The position numbers and the translations under genes are program-made. A model generated the notes under the pieces. It was not told the DNA's origin. It did not search any database and saw only the letters and a program-made list of their open reading frames with translations. This document shows, piece by piece, positions 523 through 44,386 of a stretch of DNA of 64,000 nt. The stretch is from assembly GCF_044324875.1 (NCBI RefSeq), contig NZ_CP172185.1. One strand, 5' to 3'. Source of the DNA: Escherichia coli (GTDB lineage Bacteria > Pseudomonadota > Gammaproteobacteria > Enterobacterales > Enterobacteriaceae). Numbering within the stretch: the first letter of the stretch is position 1; each line of letters starts with the position of its first letter.

Positions 523-2064
<1,542 letters not shown>

Positions 2065-2149
2065 CCTTAAAGAAGCGTACTTTGCAGTGCTCACACAGAT
2101 TGTCTGATAGAAAGTGAAAAGCAAGGCGTCTTGCGAAGCAGACTGATAC

Positions 2150-2225
2150 GTCCCCTTCGTCTAGAGGCCCAGGACACCGCCCTTTCACGGCGGTAACAGG
2201 GGTTCGAATCCCCTAGGGGACGCCA
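2150..2225 (+). tRNA. gltW: tRNA-Glu in the 16S-23S spacer
   Basis: GTCCCCTTCGTCTAGAGGCCCAGGACACCGCCCTTTCACGGCGGTAACAGGGGTTCGAATCCCCTAGGGGACGCCA, 76 nt with 3' CCA. Confidence 0.95.
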
Positions 2226-2418
2226 CTTGCTGGTTTGTGAGTGAAAGTCGCCGACCTCAATATCTCAAAACAGACTGTTAAGTCTTGTTTGAGATATTTG
2301 CTCTTTAAAAATCTGGATCAAGCTGAAAATTGAAACACTGAACAACGAAAGTTGTTCGTGAGTCTCTCAAATTTTCGCAACACGATGATGAATCGAAAGA
2401 AACATCTTCGGGTTGTGA

Positions 2419-5323
<2,905 letters not shown>

Positions 5324-5421
5324 ACAACGCCGAAGATGTTTTGGCGGATGAGAGAAAGATTTTCAGCCTGATACAGATTAAATCGACAGGTCATAACGAG
5401 ACGTGTTGATAAAACAGAATT

Positions 5422-5541
5422 TGCCTGGCGGCCGTAGCGCGGTGGTCCCACCTGACCCCATGCCGAACTCAGAAGTGAAACGCCGTAGCGCCGATGGTAG
5501 TGTGGGGTCTCCCCATGCGAGAGTAGGGAACTGCCAGGCAT
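5422..5541 (+). rRNA. rrfG: 5S ribosomal RNA
   Basis: TGCCTGGCGGCCGTAGCGCGGTGG ... GGGAACTGCCAGGCAT, 120 nt. Confidence 0.95.
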
Positions 5542-18691: not shown

Positions 18692-21045
<2,354 letters not shown>

Positions 21046-21333
21046 TTAATTTACTAAACACGGTTTGGTCAGCATAGCATCATGTTGTGCGATTAAACAC
21101 CTGCTATTTTAATATTTGTTACAGTGGCTAAACACGCTGACGCAGGGCGGCGAGAAAAAGAGAAGTTACTGGCTGGTGGAGGATTAGGTGGTGAAATAAA
21201 AAGGCCGTTGGGTTACTCTTCAGGCAGTTAAATGGGCATTTCTACACAGATAATGCGATGTTCAGATTCTGTAGACTTATAATGATAGATAATGATCCGT
21301 CTACAGCATGACAAACAAAAACAGATGCGTTAC

Positions 21334-21361
21334 GGAACTTTACAAAAACGAGACACTCTAA
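21334..21361 (+). promoter_or_regulatory. SigmaE-dependent promoter upstream of rpoE
   Basis: GGAACTT-N16-TCTAA matches the sigmaE -35/-10 consensus. Confidence 0.75.
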
Positions 21362-21443
21362 CCCTTTGCTTGCTCAAATTGCAGCTAATGGAGTGGCGTT
21401 TCGATAGCGCGTGGAAATTTGGTTTGGGGAGACTTTACCTCGG

Positions 21444-22702: not shown

Positions 22703-23658
22703 TGAAGCAACTTTGGTTTGCCATGTCATTAGTGACAGGTAGCCTGTTATTCTCTGCTAACGCCTCGGCCACTCCCGCGTCCGGGGCGTTATTACAGCAG
22801 ATGAACCTGGCCAGTCAGTCACTGAATTACGAGCTGTCATTCATCAGCATCAATAAACAGGGTGTTGAGTCTCTGCGTTATCGACATGCACGCCTCGATA
22901 ACCGTCCTCTTGCACAATTGTTGCAAATGGATGGCCCGCGCCGGGAAGTGGTACAGCGCGGCAATGAAATCAGCTATTTTGAACCGGGACTTGAACCGTT
23001 CACGCTTAATGGCGATTACATTGTTGATTCTCTACCATCGCTCATCTATACCGATTTCAAACGCCTTTCTCCTTACTACGACTTTATCTCCGTCGGGCGC
23101 ACGCGTATTGCTGATCGTCTTTGCGAAGTCATTCGTGTGGTTGCCCGAGATGGTACACGCTACAGCTACATCGTGTGGATGGACACCGAATCGAAATTAC
23201 CGATGCGGGTTGATCTCCTTGATCGCGATGGTGAAACGCTGGAACAATTTCGCGTGATTGCTTTTAATGTCAATCAGGATATCAGCAGCAGTATGCAGAC
23301 GTTGGCGAAGGCAAATTTGCCGCCGTTGCTTTCTGTTCCTGTAGGTGAAAAAGCTAAATTCAGCTGGACGCCAACCTGGTTGCCACAGGGTTTTAGCGAA
23401 GTTTCCAGTAGTCGACGTCCGCTACCGACGATGGACAACATGCCTATCGAATCACGTCTCTATTCCGACGGATTATTCAGCTTTTCGGTAAACGTTAACC
23501 GCGCTACGCCATCGAGCACCGATCAGATGTTGCGCACCGGACGCAGAACCGTCAGTACAAGCGTACGTGATAACGCCGAAATCACCATTGTCGGTGAACT
23601 GCCGCCGCAAACGGCGAAACGCATTGCCGAGAATATTAAGTTCGGGGCAGCGCAATGA
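22702..23658 (+). CDS. rseB: Sigma-E regulatory protein RseB, 318 aa
   Basis: Signal peptide; start overlaps the rseA stop (ATGA). Confidence 0.9.
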   Translation: MKQLWFAMSLVTGSLLFSANASATPASGALLQQMNLASQSLNYELSFISINKQGVESLRYRHARLDNRPLAQLLQMDGPRREVVQRGNEISYFEPGLEPFTLNGDYIVDSLPSLIYTDFKRLSPYYDFISVGRTRIADRLCEVIRVVARDGTRYSYIVWMDTESKLPMRVDLLDRDGETLEQFRVIAFNVNQDISSSMQTLAKANLPPLLSVPVGEKAKFSWTPTWLPQGFSEVSSSRRPLPTMDNMPIESRLYSDGLFSFSVNVNRATPSSTDQMLRTGRRTVSTSVRDNAEITIVGELPPQTAKRIAENIKFGAAQ

Positions 23659-24134
23659 TCAAAGAGTGGGCTACCGTCATCTCCTGGGAAAACGGGCAGG
23701 CGCTGGTTAGTTGTGATGTTAAAGCCTCATGCAGCAGCTGCGCTTCACGCGCCGGTTGCGGTAGCCGCGTGTTGAATAAACTTGGCCCGCAAACCACGCA
23801 TACCATTGTCGTACCCTGTGATGAACCGTTAGTGCCGGGGCAAAAAGTGGAATTGGGGATCGCCGAAGGCAGCCTGCTTAGCTCCGCATTACTGGTTTAT
23901 ATGTCGCCGTTGGTGGGACTATTCCTCATCGCTTCACTATTTCAGCTACTCTTTGCTTCAGATATTGCAGCATTATGCGGTGCGATTCTCGGTGGCGTTG
24001 GTGGATTCCTGATTGCACGTGGCGGCTCTCGAAAGTTTGCTGCCCGGTCTGAATGGCAACCGATCATCTTAAGCGTGGCATTGCCGCCTGGCCTTGTGCG
24101 ATTTGAAACATCTTCGGAAGACGCGAGCCAGTGA
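23655..24134 (+). CDS. rseC: RseC, 159 aa
   Basis: Overlaps rseB stop; hydrophobic C-terminal half. Confidence 0.85.
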   Translation: MIKEWATVISWENGQALVSCDVKASCSSCASRAGCGSRVLNKLGPQTTHTIVVPCDEPLVPGQKVELGIAEGSLLSSALLVYMSPLVGLFLIASLFQLLFASDIAALCGAILGGVGGFLIARGGSRKFAARSEWQPIILSVALPPGLVRFETSSEDASQ

Positions 24135-24331
24135 TTTCACTGGCTTTGTTGCATTTTGCATAACAAATGCGAGGACGTTTCCAGATACCACAATCCATAC
24201 GGTATGAACATTTCCTCGCCTCAATGTTGTAGTGTAGAATGCGGCGTTTCTATTAATACAGACGTTAAGCTCAGAACAGCGACTTCTAAAAGCCTGGTTA
24301 ACCGGGCATTAAGGCACAATAATCATACTTT

Positions 24332-26131
<1,800 letters not shown>

Positions 26132-27166: not shown

Positions 27167-27363
27167 ATTATTTATGAGATAAATCTCCCGTGGCTAACGA
27201 CATCCCCCGTCGTTGTGTATAGAATATTCCCCCGAAGTTTAAGGTTGGCACCTCCAGGTTGCCACGGCACACGAAACAGCGTTGGTCCCCATATACCGGT
27301 AAACTGAAACTGCAGCGAAGCAGTTAGCAGAACCATGTATATCAGGTCTGTTTCGTGTGCTGA

Positions 27364-28976
<1,613 letters not shown>

Positions 28977-30839: not shown

Positions 30840-30864
30840 AAAAATACCGTTCTCTTTATAAAGT

Positions 30865-30906
30865 AAAACCCCCGAACTGGTAAGGAACGGGGGTTTTACT
30901 TTTTAA
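30865..30906 (+). terminator. Rho-independent terminator after acpS
   Basis: AAAACCCCCGAACTGGTAAGGAACGGGGGTTTTACTTTTT. Confidence 0.8.
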
Positions 30907-31258
30907 CTTTAATTTTGTGCAGCACGCACCCTCAACAAGAGCGATTATGGATCAGGGCGGTTATCTTTTACAAGCAACTTGCAATCTTTAGCATAAAAAC
31001 TCGAGCCTTTACGAAGAAAACAATATTGATGGAAAGATTAACGTGACCGCCAATTCGGAAGTACATTAAAATTGGCTTCGTTATTGGCGATTTTGCTGTG
31101 CTTTATACCATGCCACAGAATTCCCCCATTGAAACGAGTGGTGTCGTCAAAGCTCTGGTGTGGAGTGCAGCATGCACCCTCAATAACTCGCACGTTCAGT
31201 TTTGGGGAGATGTAAGGGCTAATCTGAACGGCTGCATTCCTTGTTTAAGGAAAAACGA

Positions 31259-38900: not shown

Positions 38901-39801
38901 TGACAACCCGGAGTGTGCCGACCAGGAGCACCAGGCGAAATCAAACGACGCCGATCCGGGCCTGAATGTAAAACTGTCGTTCGATATCAACGAAGATGTG
39001 GCAGCACCGTATATTGCCACTGGCGCACGTCCGAAAGTTGCTGTGCTGCGTGAGCAGGGCGTGAACTCGCATGTTGAAATGGCGGCAGCTTTCCACCGTG
39101 CAGGCTTCGATGCTATCGACGTGCATATGAGCGACCTGCTGGCTGGACGCACGGGCCTGGAGGATTTCCACGCCCTGGTCGCGTGCGGTGGTTTCTCCTA
39201 CGGTGATGTGCTGGGTGCCGGTGAAGGTTGGGCGAAGTCTATCCTGTTCAATGACCGTGTACGCGATGAGTTTGCAACCTTCTTCCACCGTCCGCAAACG
39301 CTGGCGCTGGGGGTATGTAACGGTTGCCAGATGATGTCTAATCTGCGCGAACTGATCCCTGGTAGTGAGTTGTGGCCACGTTTTGTGCGCAATACCTCCG
39401 ATCGCTTTGAAGCGCGTTTCAGCCTGGTTGAAGTAACCCAAAGTCCGTCTCTGCTGTTGCAGGGGATGGTGGGCTCGCAAATGCCGATTGCTGTCTCTCA
39501 TGGTGAAGGGCGCGTGGAAGTGCGTGATGCGGCGCATCTGGCGGCACTGGAAAGCAAAGGGCTGGTGGCACTGCGCTATGTCGATAACTTCGGCAAAGTC
39601 ACTGAAACCTACCCAGCTAACCCGAACGGTTCTCCGAATGGTATTACGGCGGTCACGACTGAAAGTGGTCGAGTCACCATTATGATGCCGCACCCGGAAC
39701 GTGTTTTCCGTACTGTCAGCAACTCCTGGCATCCGGAAAACTGGGGCGAGGATGGGCCGTGGATGCGTATTTTCCGCAATGCACGTAAGCAGTTGGGGTA
39801 A
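35914..39801 (+). CDS. purL: Phosphoribosylformylglycinamidine synthase, 1295 aa
   Basis: 1295-aa ORF with C-terminal glutamine amidotransferase domain. Confidence 0.95.
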
Positions 39802-39858
39802 GCCGTCAACCCATTGGTTTTGCAGCCGGATGAGGCATTAAGCACCAACTACTATTAT

Positions 39859-39885
39859 AAGCTCCCAACTTCGGGAGCTTTTTTG
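39859..39885 (+). terminator. Rho-independent terminator after purL
   Basis: AAGCTCCCAACTTCGGGAGCTTTTTTG. Confidence 0.8.
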
Positions 39886-39999
39886 TGTCTGTAAATCACG
39901 ACAATGGGTGGTTTGCCGTGTCGCTTTCTGGCGACATTTAACTCATTGATTTTAATATTATCTAATAAGTTTATCTTAAGTTGTCTCTTTTTAGCGACA
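39886..39999 (+). promoter_or_regulatory. Three GlrR (NtrC-type) activator sites TGTC-N10-GACA upstream of glmY
   Basis: Exact TGTC-N10-GACA at 39886-39903, 39919-39936 and 39982-39999. Confidence 0.8.
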
Positions 40000-40088
40000 C
40001 AGTGGCTGATTTACAGCCAAATAGCGAAGAAGCCATAAATCCCTCAAAGCGGCGTATAATCAGTACGTTACCAAACTATTTTCTTTAT

Positions 40089-40108
40089 TGGCACAGTTAC
40101 TGCATAAT
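40089..40108 (+). promoter_or_regulatory. Overlapping sigma54 (-24 TGGCAC / -12 CTGCA) and sigma70 (-10 CATAAT) promoters of glmY
   Basis: TGGCACAGTTACTGCATAAT. Confidence 0.85.
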
Positions 40109-40114
40109 AGTAAC

Positions 40115-40298
40115 CAGTGGCTCATTCACCGACTTATGTCAGCCCCTTCGGGACGTGCTACATAAAATTCGAATGACGCACAACAAGGTGCCTGCCGTCC
40201 AACTTCTGATATCAGCGTAGCTATATCAACCATCGGGCGAAACGTCGAGTTAGGCACCGCCTTATTCCATAACAAAGCCGGGTAATTCCCGGCTTTGT
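40115..40298 (+). ncRNA. glmY: Small RNA GlmY
   Basis: Starts AGTGGCTCATTCACCGACTTATGTCAGCC as recalled for GlmY; ends at terminator AAAGCCGGGTAATTCCCGGCTTTGTTG; about 184 nt. Confidence 0.85.
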
Positions 40299-40357
40299 TG
40301 TATCTGAACTTCCCCTCGGTTAGCATCAGGCTATTCGCGTCTGACGAGAGTAACACC

Positions 40358-41785
40358 TTGAAACGCTGGCCCGTTTTTCCCCGCTCATTACGACAACTGG
40401 TAATGCTGGCATTTTTGCTGATTCTGCTGCCCCTGTTGGTGCTGGCATGGCAAGCCTGGCAAAGCCTGAATGCACTTAGCGATCAGGCGGCGCTGGTTAA
40501 CCGCACTACGCTTATTGATGCCCGGCGTAGTGAAGCGATGACCAACGCGGCACTGGAGATGGAGCGCAGCTACCGTCAGTATTGCGTGCTGGACGACCCT
40601 ACGCTTGCGAAGGTTTATCAAAGCCAGCGCAAGCGTTATAGCGAAATGCTCGATGCCCACGCAGGCGTACTGCCAGACGATAAACTTTACCAGGCATTGC
40701 GTCAGGACTTGAACAATCTGGCCCAACTTCAGTGTAACAACAGTGGTCCCGATGCCGCCGCCGCCGCGCGTCTTGAAGCCTTTGCCAGTGCCAATACCGA
40801 AATGGTGCAGGCCACGCGCACAGTGGTGTTCTCTCGTGGGCAGCAACTTCAGCGTGAAATCGCCGAACGTGGGCAATATTTTGGTTGGCAATCGCTGGTG
40901 TTATTTCTGGTGAGTCTGGTGATGGTGCTACTTTTCACGAGGATGATTATCGGTCCGGTGAAAAATATCGAGCGCATGATCAACCGGCTGGGGGAAGGGC
41001 GTTCTCTGGGCAATAGTGTCTCGTTCAGTGGACCGAGCGAGTTACGCTCGGTTGGGCAACGTATTCTTTGGTTAAGTGAGCGCCTGTCATGGCTGGAATC
41101 CCAACGTCATCAATTCTTAAGACATTTATCTCATGAATTAAAAACGCCGCTGGCGAGTATGCGCGAGGGCACTGAATTACTGGCTGACCAGGTTGTCGGG
41201 CCGCTTACGCCAGAGCAAAAAGAGGTGGTGAGCATCCTCGATAGCAGCAGCCGCAATTTGCAAAAACTGATCGAACAACTGCTTGATTACAACCGTAAAC
41301 AGGCGGACAGTGCGGTGGAACTGGAGAATGTTGAATTAGCACCGCTGGTGGAGACAGTAGTTTCTGCTCATAGCCTGCCCGCACGGGCTAAAATGATGCA
41401 TACCGACGTCGATCTCCAAGCAACAGCTTGCCTGGCGGAGCCAATGCTGCTGATGAGCGTACTGGATAATCTTTACTCCAATGCTGTGCACTACGGGACT
41501 GAATCCGGTAACATTTGCCTTCGCAGCAGTTTACATGGCGCGCGGGTTTATATTGATGTCATCAATACAGGCACACCCATTCCGCAAGAGGAACGCGCCA
41601 TGATCTTTGAACCCTTTTTTCAGGGAAGCCACCAGCGAAAAGGGGCGGTGAAGGGCAGCGGTCTGGGATTAAGCATTGCCAGGGATTGTATTCGCCGTAT
41701 GCAGGGGGAACTGTATCTGGTCGACGAGAGCGGGCAAGACGTTTGCTTCCGCATTGAATTGCCGTCGTCGAAAAACACGAAATAA
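40358..41785 (+). CDS. glrK: Sensor histidine kinase GlrK, 475 aa, probable TTG start
   Basis: HAMP/HisKA region with conserved His in LSHELKTPL, plus HATPase domain; start set by expected length. Confidence 0.85.
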   Translation: MKRWPVFPRSLRQLVMLAFLLILLPLLVLAWQAWQSLNALSDQAALVNRTTLIDARRSEAMTNAALEMERSYRQYCVLDDPTLAKVYQSQRKRYSEMLDAHAGVLPDDKLYQALRQDLNNLAQLQCNNSGPDAAAAARLEAFASANTEMVQATRTVVFSRGQQLQREIAERGQYFGWQSLVLFLVSLVMVLLFTRMIIGPVKNIERMINRLGEGRSLGNSVSFSGPSELRSVGQRILWLSERLSWLESQRHQFLRHLSHELKTPLASMREGTELLADQVVGPLTPEQKEVVSILDSSSRNLQKLIEQLLDYNRKQADSAVELENVELAPLVETVVSAHSLPARAKMMHTDVDLQATACLAEPMLLMSVLDNLYSNAVHYGTESGNICLRSSLHGARVYIDVINTGTPIPQEERAMIFEPFFQGSHQRKGAVKGSGLGLSIARDCIRRMQGELYLVDESGQDVCFRIELPSSKNTK

Positions 41786-41949
41786 TGTTAAGAGCCTATC
41801 CCATCAGGCTATTTTATTTGCCAGTTCGGCCCCGGGCGGAGCTCGAAATCCTCACGTACGACATGTACGCTCCGGTTTCTCCGCGCTGTCTGTGCCCAAA
41901 CTGCCTGCAACAATTACGCCCACTGGGATAGGCATTAAGTCTGGTGAAT

Positions 41950-42663
41950 ATGCGACACATTTTTCAACGATTATTGCCCCGACGGCTGTGGCTGGCAGGG
42001 CTGCCATGTCTGGCATTGCTGGGTTGCGTGCAGAGTCACAATAAACCAGCCATTGATACGCCAGCAGAAGAAAAAATTCCGGTTTATCAACTGGCTGACT
42101 ATCTTTCTACTGAATGTAGCGACATCTGGGCGCTGCAAGGTAAATCAACCGAAACCAATCCGCTTTACTGGCTGCGGGCGATGGATTGTGCTGATCGTTT
42201 AATGCCTGCGCAGTCGCGTCAGCAAGCTCGCCAATATGACGACGGCAGCTGGCAAAAGACCTTTAAACAAGGGATTTTGCTCGCCGACGCCAAAATTACG
42301 CCGTATGAGCGCCGCCAGCTGGTCGCGCGCATTGATGCGCTAAGTACCGAGATCCCGGCACAGGTTCGCCCTCTGTATCAACTCTGGCGCGACGGTCAGG
42401 CGCTGCAACTGCAACTGGCGGAAGAGCGCCAACGCTACGGCAAACTCCAGCAATCCAGCGACAGCGAGCTGGATACATTGCGCCAGCAACATCACGTTCT
42501 ACAGCAGCAACTGGAACTCACCACCCGCAAGCTGGAAAACCTGACTGATATTGAACGCCAGCTCTCGACCCGCAAACCGGCTGGAAATTTCTCGCCGGAT
42601 ACGCCGCACGAGAGTGAAAAGCCCGCGCCATCCACCCATGAGGTCACTCCTGATGAGCCATAA
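41950..42663 (+). CDS. qseG: Lipoprotein QseG/YfhG, 237 aa
   Basis: Lipobox LLGCVQ; coiled-coil-like Q-rich C-terminus; between glrK and glrR. Confidence 0.8.
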   Translation: MRHIFQRLLPRRLWLAGLPCLALLGCVQSHNKPAIDTPAEEKIPVYQLADYLSTECSDIWALQGKSTETNPLYWLRAMDCADRLMPAQSRQQARQYDDGSWQKTFKQGILLADAKITPYERRQLVARIDALSTEIPAQVRPLYQLWRDGQALQLQLAEERQRYGKLQQSSDSELDTLRQQHHVLQQQLELTTRKLENLTDIERQLSTRKPAGNFSPDTPHESEKPAPSTHEVTPDEP

Positions 42664-43987
42664 ACCTGCGCATTTATTATTGGTCGATGACGATCCGGGA
42701 TTGCTGAAACTGCTTGGCCTGCGCCTGACCAGCGAAGGCTACAGCGTGGTCACGGCGGAAAGTGGTGCTGAAGGATTACGGGTACTGAATCGCGAAAAAG
42801 TAGATTTAGTTATCAGCGACCTGCGGATGGATGAAATGGATGGTATGCAGCTGTTTGCTGAAATCCAGAAAGTGCAGCCGGGAATGCCGGTAATTATTCT
42901 TACCGCACATGGTTCTATTCCCGATGCCGTTGCTGCAACACAGCAGGGCGTGTTCAGTTTCCTCACCAAGCCTGTCGATAAAGACGCGCTATATCAGGCA
43001 ATTGATGATGCGTTGGAACAATCCGCGCCAGCCACCGACGAACGCTGGCGCGAGGCGATTGTCACCCGCAGCCCGCTGATGCTGCGTTTGCTGGAACAGG
43101 CGCGGCTGGTGGCGCAATCAGACGTCAGCGTTTTGATTAATGGCCAGAGCGGCACCGGGAAAGAGATTTTCGCCCAGGCTATCCACAACGCCAGCCCGCG
43201 CAATAGCAAACCATTTATTGCTATTAACTGTGGTGCATTGCCCGAGCAATTGCTGGAGTCGGAGCTGTTTGGTCATGCGCGTGGCGCGTTTACTGGCGCT
43301 GTCAGCAATCGCGAAGGTTTATTCCAGGCGGCGGAAGGCGGTACGCTATTTCTCGATGAGATTGGCGATATGCCCGCACCGTTGCAGGTCAAACTGCTGC
43401 GCGTGTTGCAGGAGCGTAAAGTGCGCCCGCTGGGCAGTAACCGCGATATTGATATCGACGTGCGGATTATTTCCGCCACTCACCGCGACCTGCCAAAAGC
43501 GATGGCGCGCGGGGAATTCCGCGAAGATCTCTATTACCGCCTCAATGTTGTCAGCCTGAAAATTCCGGCTCTGGCAGAGCGCACAGAAGACATTCCGCTA
43601 CTGGCAAATCACCTGTTGCGCCAGGCGGCAGAGCGACATAAACCGTTTGTCCGCGCGTTCTCCACCGATGCAATGAAACGCCTGATGACCGCTAGCTGGC
43701 CGGGTAATGTACGCCAGTTGGTCAACGTGATTGAACAGTGCGTGGCGCTGACCTCATCTCCGGTGATTAGTGATGCATTAGTAGAGCAGGCGCTGGAGGG
43801 TGAAAATACGGCGCTGCCAACCTTTGTTGAGGCACGTAATCAGTTTGAACTCAACTATTTGCGTAAGCTGCTGCAAATTACCAAAGGCAACGTCACCCAC
43901 GCGGCGAGAATGGCGGGGCGCAACCGGACAGAATTTTATAAACTGCTTTCCCGACACGAGCTGGATGCAAACGATTTCAAGGAATGA
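42653..43987 (+). CDS. glrR: Sigma54-dependent response regulator GlrR, 444 aa
   Basis: Receiver domain, AAA+ sigma54-activator domain (GESGTGKE, GAFTGA) and C-terminal HTH. Confidence 0.9.

Positions 43988-44011: not shown

Positions 44012-44386
<375 letters not shown>

What the first reader, a model, noticed from the sequence alone, without database searches (positions are those of the whole stretch)
39886..40298. Complete GlmY sRNA module: three GlrR sites, overlapping sigma54/sigma70 promoters, sRNA and terminator
Three exact TGTC-N10-GACA sites lie about 90-200 bp upstream of a TGGCAC-N5-CTGCA sigma54 promoter that shares its -12 region with a CATAAT sigma70 -10 box. Transcription would start at AGTGGCTCATTCACC (40115) and end at a strong terminator (40271-40300). 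This matches the known GlmY sRNA and its GlrK/GlrR-controlled promoter, immediately upstream of glrK. It is an established element, but it would be missed by protein-only annotation.
Basis: partly seen in the sequence, partly recalled or inferred. Interest (0 to 1): 0.3.

Follow-up and report, generated by a model that had tools for sequence, protein, structure and literature searches.

The report
Known E. coli glmY small-RNA gene

Summary
The window is an E. coli chromosome. Between purL and glrK/qseE lies glmY at 40116-40299. It is 183/184 identical to the annotated K-12 gene b4441 and scores 147 bits on Rfam GlmY_tke1 (threshold 33).

Upstream are the only three exact TGTC-N10-GACA sites in the 64 kb, all within 114 bp. 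A TGGCAC-N5-CTGCA sigma-54 promoter follows at 40089-40104, overlapped by CATAAT at 40103-40108. A 14-bp hairpin (-23.4 kcal/mol) closes the gene.

I fetched 99 orthologous loci from other Enterobacterales. They keep the sigma-54 core at the same offset, usually keep three GlrR sites with 33/63-bp spacing, and keep glrK downstream. The RNA helices show compensatory changes.

Corrections:
- The 5' end is 40116, not 40115.
- The Rfam match ends at 40263, which is the length of the 148-nt processed form.
- Two IHF-consensus sites (39939-39951 and 40058-40070) flank the proximal GlrR site and were missed.
- The sigma-70 promoter has no recognisable -35.

Nothing is novel, so interest is low.

The parts
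39859..39880 (+). purL intrinsic terminator. It marks the upstream boundary of the module, and its T run leads directly into the first GlrR site.
   Evidence: Terminator scan. Folds at -13.6 kcal/mol, z = -4.3. The purL ORF ends at 39801.
39886..39903 (.). GlrR/QseF binding site 1 (distal), TGTCTGTAAATCACGACA. Centre about -221 from the 5' end of glmY.
   Evidence: Exact TGTC-N10-GACA. Half-sites conserved at 0.95 and 0.97 across 98 loci, spacer at 0.54. Identical in K-12. Three such sites are published as GlrR sites (PMC3045617).
39919..39936 (.). GlrR/QseF binding site 2, TGTCGCTTTCTGGCGACA. It starts 33 bp after site 1.
   Evidence: Half-sites conserved at 0.98 and 0.98. A start-to-start spacing of 31-33 bp is found in 82 of the 82 loci that have three sites.
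39939..39951 (-). IHF consensus site (distal), AATCAATGAGTTA on the minus strand. It lies between GlrR sites 2 and 3.
   Evidence: Exact WATCARNNNNTTR. Conserved at 0.80. The literature reports two IHF-like sites flanking ABS3, with the distal one essential for sigma-54 promoter activity (PMC3045617).
39982..39999 (.). GlrR/QseF binding site 3 (proximal), TGTCTCTTTTTAGCGACA. It starts 63 bp after site 2 and 134 bp before the 5' end of glmY.
   Evidence: Half-sites conserved at 0.84 and 0.96. The 63-bp spacing is found in 79 of the 82 loci with three sites.
40058..40070 (+). IHF consensus site (proximal), AATCAGTACGTTA. It lies between GlrR site 3 and the promoter.
   Evidence: Exact WATCARNNNNTTR. 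Conserved at 0.61. Identical in K-12.
40089..40104 (+). Sigma-54 promoter core, TGGCAC-N5-CTGCA. GG is at 40090-40091 and GC at 40102-40103.
   Evidence: TGGCAY-N6-TGC is found at the same offset (+/-1) in 99 of 100 confirmed glmY loci from other Enterobacterales and in none of 20 chance matches. The TGGCAC block is conserved at 0.95.
40103..40108 (+). -10 hexamer CATAAT of the overlapping weak sigma-70 promoter.
   Evidence: Read directly from the sequence. Identical to K-12, where CATAAT is the characterised -10 (PMC3045617). Present in 34 of 97 orthologous loci only. No consensus -35 was found.
40116..40299 (+). glmY primary transcript, 184 nt.
   Evidence: Aligns end to end with K-12 ncRNA glmY b4441 and differs only at 40169, T here and A in K-12. 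Folds at -64.2 kcal/mol, z = -5.5.
40116..40263 (+). The part of glmY that matches the whole Rfam model. Its 148 nt equal the length of the published processed, active form.
   Evidence: RF00128 at 147.1 bits, threshold 33, model positions 1-163 of 163. The 148-nt processed form is described in PMC4152352. The Rfam structure is 96.4% paired across 98 sequences, with 10 compensatory pairs.
40269..40301 (+). glmY terminator hairpin: a 14-bp stem and 5-nt loop, with a U-rich 3' arm and tail.
   Evidence: Folds at -23.4 kcal/mol, z = -7.1. The K-12 annotated 3' end corresponds to 40299. The stem is kept with changed sequence in related genera, for example GCCGGG/CCCGGC against GGCAGGG/CCCTGCC.
40358..41785 (+). 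glrK/qseE sensor kinase gene (TTG start), first gene of the qseEGF operon. Context for the module.
   Evidence: The RefSeq CDS qseE starts at this position in a strain identical over 39800-40400. Histidine kinase family matches. qseG lies at 41944-42663 (358 bits), glrR at 42650-43987 (983 bits to the GlrR equivalog) and glnB at 44048-44386.

Best explanation
This is the E. coli glmY gene with its complete transcription control region.

Transcription. Phosphorylated GlrR (QseF), encoded three genes downstream, binds the three TGTC-N10-GACA sites. IHF bends the intervening DNA at the two flanking IHF sites. GlrR then contacts sigma-54 RNA polymerase held at TGGCAC-N5-CTGCA and drives open-complex formation. 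A weak sigma-70 promoter uses CATAAT, which overlaps the -12 element. It gives basal transcription from the same start, A40116.

The RNA. The 184-nt transcript ends at the hairpin 40269-40301. Its 3' end is trimmed to a 148-nt form, which folds into three conserved stem-loop domains.

Function. This RNA does not base-pair with a target. It mimics its homologue GlmZ and sequesters the RNase E adaptor protein RapZ. GlmZ therefore escapes cleavage and activates glmS translation when glucosamine-6-phosphate is scarce.

What was shown here: the presence, position, statistical rarity and cross-species conservation of every DNA element; the RNA family membership; covariation supporting the RNA structure; near-identity to K-12; and the gene neighbourhood.

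What is taken from the literature on K-12 and inferred by sequence identity: GlrR and IHF binding, dual sigma-factor use, the exact start site, 3' processing, and the RapZ decoy mechanism.
For: - RNA family: Rfam GlmY_tke1 at 147.1 bits, E = 8e-33, over the full model.
- Identity with K-12: 183/184 identity to K-12 glmY b4441, with identical GlrR sites, IHF sites and promoter core.
- Presence in E. coli: the locus occurs in 5425 of 5426 complete E. coli genomes, always on the chromosome.
- GlrR sites: the only three exact TGTC-N10-GACA sites in 64 kb lie within 114 bp. The chance expectation for such a triplet is about 1e-6.
- IHF sites: two exact IHF-consensus sites flank site 3.
- Orthologous loci: 99 loci from other Enterobacterales keep the sigma-54 core at -27 (+/-1). 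Of the 97 with a full upstream region, 82 have exactly three sites at up to 1 mismatch. Spacing is 33/63 or 32/63 bp in 76 of those 82. glrK lies downstream in 79 of 83.
- Footprint: half-sites are conserved at 0.84-0.98 and the -24 element at 0.95, against 0.3-0.6 for spacers.
- RNA structure: 96.4% of cells are paired, against 27-42% in slid controls, and 10 pairs show changes on both sides. The MFE z-score is -5.5.
- Terminator: -23.4 kcal/mol.
- Neighbouring genes: the GlrR equivalog scores 983 bits, QseG 358 bits, and PurL lies upstream.
- Literature: PMC3045617, PMC4152352, PMC7073468 and PMC6075780.
Against: Nothing in the sequence argues against it. The limits are these:
- No experiment exists for this particular strain.
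- The sigma-54, IHF and sigma-70 motifs are each individually no rarer than chance in the window. Their assignment rests on position, conservation and identity with K-12.
- No -35 element is recognisable for the sigma-70 promoter.
- The primary paper on the overlapping promoters (PubMed 19843219) could not be read, so its results are cited through later papers from the same laboratory.
- My cross-species sample was selected with a pattern that fixes helix 1 and one arm of helix 3. Their invariance is therefore uninformative.
Confidence: 0.97

Rival explanations
1. The RNA is the paralogue GlmZ, the base-pairing activator of glmS, rather than GlmY.
For: GlmY and GlmZ belong to one Rfam clan (CL00011), and a lower-scoring overlapping match to a clan member was suppressed in the searches. 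The literature describes the two as highly similar in sequence and structure (PMC4152352).
Against: GlmY_tke1 is the best-scoring clan member at this site. The sequence is 183/184 identical to the K-12 gene annotated as glmY. It sits between purL and glrK, the conserved glmY position (PMC6075780). E. coli glmZ is reported to have only a sigma-70 promoter (PMC3045617), whereas this locus has the sigma-54/GlrR module.
Confidence: 0.01
2. glmY acts mainly as the promoter-proximal part of a glmY-qseE-qseG-qseF operon. The GlrR/sigma-54 promoter would then autoregulate the two-component system by read-through of the hairpin.
For: All four genes are on the same strand, with only 58 bp between the glmY 3' end and the glrK start. 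The T tract after the hairpin is interrupted, and the simple terminator scan did not flag it. In Proteus mirabilis glmY-qseE-qseG-qseF are reported to form an operon (abstract of PMC8745638).
Against: The hairpin is very stable, at -23.4 kcal/mol with z = -7.1. In K-12, whose sequence from the promoter to the glrK start is identical apart from one base, reporter fusions and RT-PCR indicate that read-through from glmY into qseE virtually does not occur. There qseEGF has its own sigma-70 promoter, starting 25 bp upstream of the start codon (PMC6075780).
Confidence: 0.05
3. The motif cluster is a chance arrangement in an intergenic spacer, and the RNA-like fold has no function.
For: Taken singly, the sigma-54, IHF and one-mismatch GlrR motifs occur about as often as in shuffled sequence.
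Against: Three exact sites within 114 bp have an expectation of about 1e-6. The elements keep their positions across 99 loci from many genera, while the DNA between them diverges. Compensatory base changes preserve the helices. The 20 chance pattern matches from unrelated phyla have none of these elements.
Confidence: 0.005

Closest known systems
E. coli K-12 glmY (b4441; formerly tke1/sroF) and its promoter region
   Same: The gene order purL-glmY-glrK is the same. 183 of 184 transcribed bases are identical. The three GlrR sites, both IHF-consensus sites, the sigma-54 core, CATAAT, the terminator and the glrK leader are all identical.
   Different: Position 54 of the RNA (40169) is T here and A in K-12. 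It is unpaired in the Rfam structure, and T is the state in E. albertii and most other genera. About 10 substitutions lie in the spacer 40017-40053 between GlrR site 3 and the proximal IHF site. This stretch is polymorphic across E. coli and shows no indels against K-12 or the other E. coli genome aligned.
GlmZ (Rfam RF00083, same clan CL00011)
   Same: It is a homologous sRNA with the same overall stem-loop architecture, and both are bound by RapZ (PMC4152352). In many Enterobacterales glmZ also has a sigma-54/GlrR/IHF promoter (PMC3045617).
   Different: GlmZ carries a glmS-complementary region and acts by base-pairing. GlmY lacks it and acts as a protein decoy (PMC4152352). E. coli glmZ is reported to have a sigma-70 promoter only and lies elsewhere in the genome.
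glmY loci of other Enterobacterales (Salmonella, Citrobacter, Enterobacter, Yersinia, Serratia, Photorhabdus, Pantoea, Erwinia and others)
   Same: They share the sigma-54 core at the same offset, usually three GlrR sites with about 33/63-bp spacing, glrK downstream, and the same RNA helices.
   Different: All three sites are exact in only 20 of 97 loci. The overlapping CATAAT -10 occurs in only 34 of 97, in a subset of genera, as published. The 3' terminator region does not align between distant genera. Edwardsiella hoshinae has glmY without the module.

Membership tests
GlmY sRNA (Rfam RF00128, GlmY_tke1) | Score at or above the curated gathering threshold of the covariance model, over the full model | tested here: met
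   147.1 bits against a threshold of 33, model positions 1-163 of 163, E = 8e-33.
GlmY sRNA (Rfam RF00128, GlmY_tke1) | Conserved multi-helix secondary structure supported by covariation | tested here: met
   The Rfam structure was mapped onto 98 sequences. 96.4% of cells are paired, against 27-42% when slid, and 10 pairs change on both sides. The MFE fold of the window's RNA reproduces the helices, z = -5.5. Caveat: helix 1 and one arm of helix 3 were fixed by the search pattern.
GlmY sRNA (Rfam RF00128, GlmY_tke1) | Conserved position immediately upstream of glrK/qseE (synteny) | tested here: met
   glrK starts 58 bp after the glmY 3' end. glrK lies downstream in 79 of 83 orthologous loci. 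The synteny is stated in PMC6075780.
GlmY sRNA (Rfam RF00128, GlmY_tke1) | Orthology to the experimentally characterised K-12 gene | tested here: met
   183/184 identity across the annotated 184-nt ncRNA b4441.
GlmY sRNA (Rfam RF00128, GlmY_tke1) | 3' processing to about 148 nt, RapZ binding, and indirect activation of glmS | not testable with these tools
   Known for K-12 (PMC4152352; PMC7073468). Inferred here from near-identity only.
GlrR/QseF-activated sigma-54 promoter | -24 GG and -12 GC elements with canonical spacing, at the proper distance from the start | tested here: met
   TGGCACAGTTACTGCA at 40089-40104. The GC lies at -14/-13 relative to A40116. The same offset (+/-1) is seen in 99 orthologous loci.
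GlrR/QseF-activated sigma-54 promoter | Upstream activator sites TGTC-N10-GACA, three of them, more than 100 bp upstream | tested here: met
   Three exact sites start at -230, -197 and -134. Their half-sites are conserved.
GlrR/QseF-activated sigma-54 promoter | IHF site(s) between activator sites and promoter | tested here: met
   Exact WATCARNNNNTTR at 39939-39951 (-) and 40058-40070 (+). The consensus is met, but binding was not tested. Only 15 of 97 orthologous loci have two exact-consensus sites.
GlrR/QseF-activated sigma-54 promoter | Cognate enhancer-binding response regulator and its kinase are encoded | tested here: met
   The GlrR equivalog NF011695 scores 983 bits against a cutoff of 763. 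QseG scores 358 bits. A histidine kinase is annotated as QseE/GlrK in a strain identical over 39800-40400.
GlrR/QseF-activated sigma-54 promoter | Dependence of transcription on rpoN, glrR, glrK and IHF | not testable with these tools
   Shown for K-12 (PMC3045617). rpoN lies outside the window.
Overlapping sigma-70 promoter of glmY | -10 hexamer CATAAT overlapping the sigma-54 -12 element | tested here: met
   40103-40108, identical to K-12. Named as the characterised -10 in PMC3045617.
Overlapping sigma-70 promoter of glmY | Recognisable -35 hexamer at 16-18 bp | tested here: not met
   The consensus scan finds no sigma-70-type promoter in 39700-40500. At a 17-bp spacing the sequence is TTTCTT, matching 2 of 6. 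This fits the published description of a weak promoter (PMC6075780) and does not exclude function.

The most novel reading that the evidence does not exclude
The least ordinary reading not excluded is that allelic differences alter how strongly or when glmY is induced in this strain lineage compared with K-12. Two differences could do this. One is the spacer 40017-40053 between GlrR site 3 and the proximal IHF site, which differs from K-12 at about 10 of 37 bases. The other is U54 in place of A54 in the RNA. The effect could come through DNA bendability or an unrecognised regulator site.
Probability: 0.03. Interest if true: 0.12.

Novelty: already known. Interest (0 to 1): 0.05.

Why it matters
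It matters only as an annotation point. glmY heads the GlmY/GlmZ/RapZ circuit that keeps glucosamine-6-phosphate, and so cell-envelope synthesis, in balance. It is also tied to virulence regulation through QseE/QseF. Even so, the RefSeq annotation of a strain identical over 39800-40400 shows nothing between purL and qseE. The result shows that the first-stage reader can recover a complete non-coding regulatory module from raw sequence. It adds no new biology.

Tried and rejected
- Generic scans. The terminator scan found the purL terminator but not the glmY terminator, whose T run is interrupted. The sigma-70 scan found nothing. These scans are therefore uninformative for this promoter and terminator, not evidence against them.
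- Single-motif statistics. The counts for the sigma-54 core and the IHF consensus (7 found against 4 expected) are not significant on their own. One-mismatch GlrR sites (19 found against 21 expected) show no enrichment, so no further GlrR sites can be called in the window from the motif alone.
- Primary paper. The paper on the overlapping promoters (PubMed 19843219) is not held. I used later open papers that restate its findings.
- Small proteins. I checked whether the region encodes one. ORFs of 20-79 aa overlap it on both strands. None has support, and the region is explained by the RNA and its DNA sites, so I did not pursue them.
- Spacer differences from K-12. I checked whether the substitution-dense spacer marks something strain-specific. 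It is polymorphic across all E. coli: only 25 genomes are at least 99% identical to the window over 40000-40075, and 1654 are at 80-90%. It is also poorly conserved between genera (0.31). I read it as ordinary, weakly constrained DNA.
- GlmZ identity and chance origin were both rejected (see the rival explanations).

Full report
**What is there.** I read window 39700-40500 directly. Three exact TGTC-N10-GACA palindromes lie at 39886-39903, 39919-39936 and 39982-39999. They are the only exact matches in the whole 64-kb window, against 0.87 expected from shuffles. From that background rate, the expected number of three-site clusters within 114 bp is about 1e-6. TGGCACAGTTACTGCA lies at 40089-40104. 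CATAAT lies at 40103-40108 and shares two bases with the -12 element. A 14-bp hairpin (40269-40282 paired with 40288-40301) folds at -23.4 kcal/mol, z = -7.1. The simple terminator scan missed it because the T run is interrupted. The same scan did find the purL terminator at 39859-39880, whose T run leads directly into the first site.

Rfam GlmY_tke1 (RF00128) matches 40116-40263 on the + strand over the full model, at 147.1 bits against a threshold of 33, E = 8e-33. The match is 148 nt long. That equals the published length of the 3'-processed, active form of the 184-nt primary transcript (PMC4152352). The Rfam match therefore does not reach the terminator, which lies in the part that is trimmed off.

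**Organism and locus.** The 601 bases around the finding match 5425 of 5426 complete E. coli genomes, always on the chromosome. The match is 100% to strain CFIAFB20140388 (O158:H23) and about 97% to K-12 types. In K-12 MG1655 the corresponding stretch is annotated as ncRNA glmY (b4441, 184 nt), between purL and glrK. A pairwise alignment shows that all three sites, both IHF-like sites, the promoter core, the terminator and the glrK leader are identical to K-12. The transcribed region differs at one base: 40169, which is T here and A in K-12. That base is unpaired in the Rfam structure, and T is the state in E. albertii and most other genera. The flanking proteins are as follows:
- PurL: 2275 bits.
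- A histidine kinase, annotated QseE/GlrK in a strain identical over 39800-40400, with a TTG start at 40358.
- QseG: 358 bits.
- GlrR: 983 bits to its equivalog model.
- GlnB.

The PGAP annotation of that strain has no feature between purL and qseE.

The literature describes two IHF-like sites (consensus WATCARNNNNTTR) flanking the proximal GlrR site. The distal one is essential for sigma-54 promoter activity (PMC3045617). Both are present as exact consensus matches: 39939-39951 on the minus strand and 40058-40070 on the plus strand. The window holds 7 such matches against 4 expected, so it is their position that counts, not their mere presence.

**Independent conservation test.** I did not want to rely on the papers alone, so I scanned one genome per species with a pattern taken from conserved parts of GlmY.
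- *Sample.* Of 120 loci returned, 99 carry TGGCAY-N6-TGC at -27 (+/-1) from the RNA 5' end. Of the 21 that do not, 20 are chance matches from unrelated phyla, and they also lack every other element. They serve as a negative control.
- *GlrR sites.* Among the 97 true loci with a full upstream region, 82 have exactly three sites at up to 1 mismatch. Start-to-start spacing is 33/63 bp in 53 and 32/63 bp in 23, roughly 3 and 6 helical turns, which would put all sites on one face. All three sites are exact in 20 loci.
- *Sigma-70 -10.* CATAAT occurs in 34 of 97 loci. This matches the published statement that the overlapping sigma-70 promoter is confined to a subset of genera.
- *Synteny.* glrK follows in 79 of 83 loci, and purL precedes within 900 bp in 66 of 86.
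- *Footprint.* A column-by-column footprint shows the half-sites at 0.84-0.98, the -24 block at 0.95 and the distal IHF site at 0.80. Spacers are at 0.3-0.6.

**RNA structure.** The 184-nt RNA folds at -64.2 kcal/mol, z = -5.5. I mapped Rfam's curated structure onto my alignment of 98 sequences. 96.4% of cells form standard pairs, against 27-42% when partners are slid. Ten pairs change on both sides, against 5.0 +/- 0.9 in shuffles, and none of 500 shuffles reached the observed value. Helix 1 and the 5' arm of helix 3 were fixed by my search pattern, so their invariance carries no weight. The compensatory changes are in helices 2 to 6. The terminator stem is also kept with changed sequence in neighbouring genera.

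**Mechanism.**
- *Shown here:* the anatomy, its rarity, its conservation, RNA family membership and near-identity to K-12.
- *Inferred from K-12 work through sequence identity, transcription:* GlrR~P binds the three sites, IHF bends the DNA, and sigma-54 polymerase is activated. A weak sigma-70 promoter starts at the same nucleotide (PMC3045617; PMC6075780).
- *Inferred from K-12 work through sequence identity, the RNA:* The transcript is trimmed to 148 nt and acts as a decoy that sequesters RapZ. This protects GlmZ, which activates glmS (PMC4152352). GlcN6P-free RapZ in turn stimulates QseE/QseF and so stimulates glmY transcription (PMC7073468).
- *Read-through:* In K-12 read-through into qseE is reported as virtually absent, and qseEGF has its own promoter starting 25 bp before the start codon (PMC6075780). 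That start would be about 40333 here.

**Things that did not add up to anything.** The spacer 40017-40053 differs from K-12 at about 10 of 37 bases. The same stretch is polymorphic across E. coli as a whole, poorly conserved between genera, and shows no indels against K-12 or the other E. coli genome aligned. It looks like weakly constrained looping DNA whose length matters more than its sequence. Small ORFs overlap the region on both strands but have no support.

**Verdict.** The element is already known, so interest is low.

Noticed in passing
L052:2193-2520 (minus strand), Edwardsiella hoshinae: A genuine glmY (Rfam 110.5 bits) sits between purL and glrK, only about 150 bp after the purL stop. 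It has no TGTC-N10-GACA site and no TGGCA-N6-TGC core upstream. In this genus glmY seems to lack the GlrR/sigma-54 module that the other 99 loci keep.
   Followed up: partly
window 21037-21443 (nadB-rpoE intergenic region): Two TGT-N12-ACA sites lie upstream of rpoE, at 21043-21060 and 21117-21134. rpoE is the other published QseF/GlrR sigma-54 target (rpoE P2; PMC6075780). I did not locate a clear -24/-12 core in this region.
   Followed up: partly
window 40000-40075: The spacer between GlrR site 3 and the proximal IHF site is highly polymorphic within E. coli. Only 25 of 5425 genomes are at least 99% identical to the window here, and 1654 are at 80-90%. It shows no indels against K-12 or the other E. 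coli genome aligned, while the flanking sites are invariant.
   Followed up: yes
window 40078-40082: A short T tract about 35-38 bp before the glmY start is conserved across genera at 0.5-0.9, although it belongs to none of the named elements. It may be part of the sigma-54 upstream contact, or the sigma-70 -35 region.
   Followed up: no
window 40298-40326: By eye, TTGTAT (40298-40303) and TAGCAT (40321-40326) are 17 bp apart and fit the published qseEGF sigma-70 start 25 bp before the glrK start codon. The -35 would then overlap the tail of the glmY terminator. The pair falls below the consensus scan's threshold, at 8 of 12 matches.
   Followed up: no
window 523-5539, 23619-24450, 27234-27448, 30860-30936: Other Rfam hits in the window: a complete rRNA operon with a spacer tRNA and StyR-44, AsrC antisense to rseC, the rncO leader, and the ohsC antitoxin sRNA. 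Together these fit the E. coli rrnG-to-glyA chromosomal segment.
   Followed up: no
L006 (Escherichia albertii), upstream of glmY: E. albertii has about 1 kb between purL and glmY, against 314 bp here, and only two sites at up to 1 mismatch. The proximal site and the spacer are strongly diverged from E. coli.
   Followed up: no
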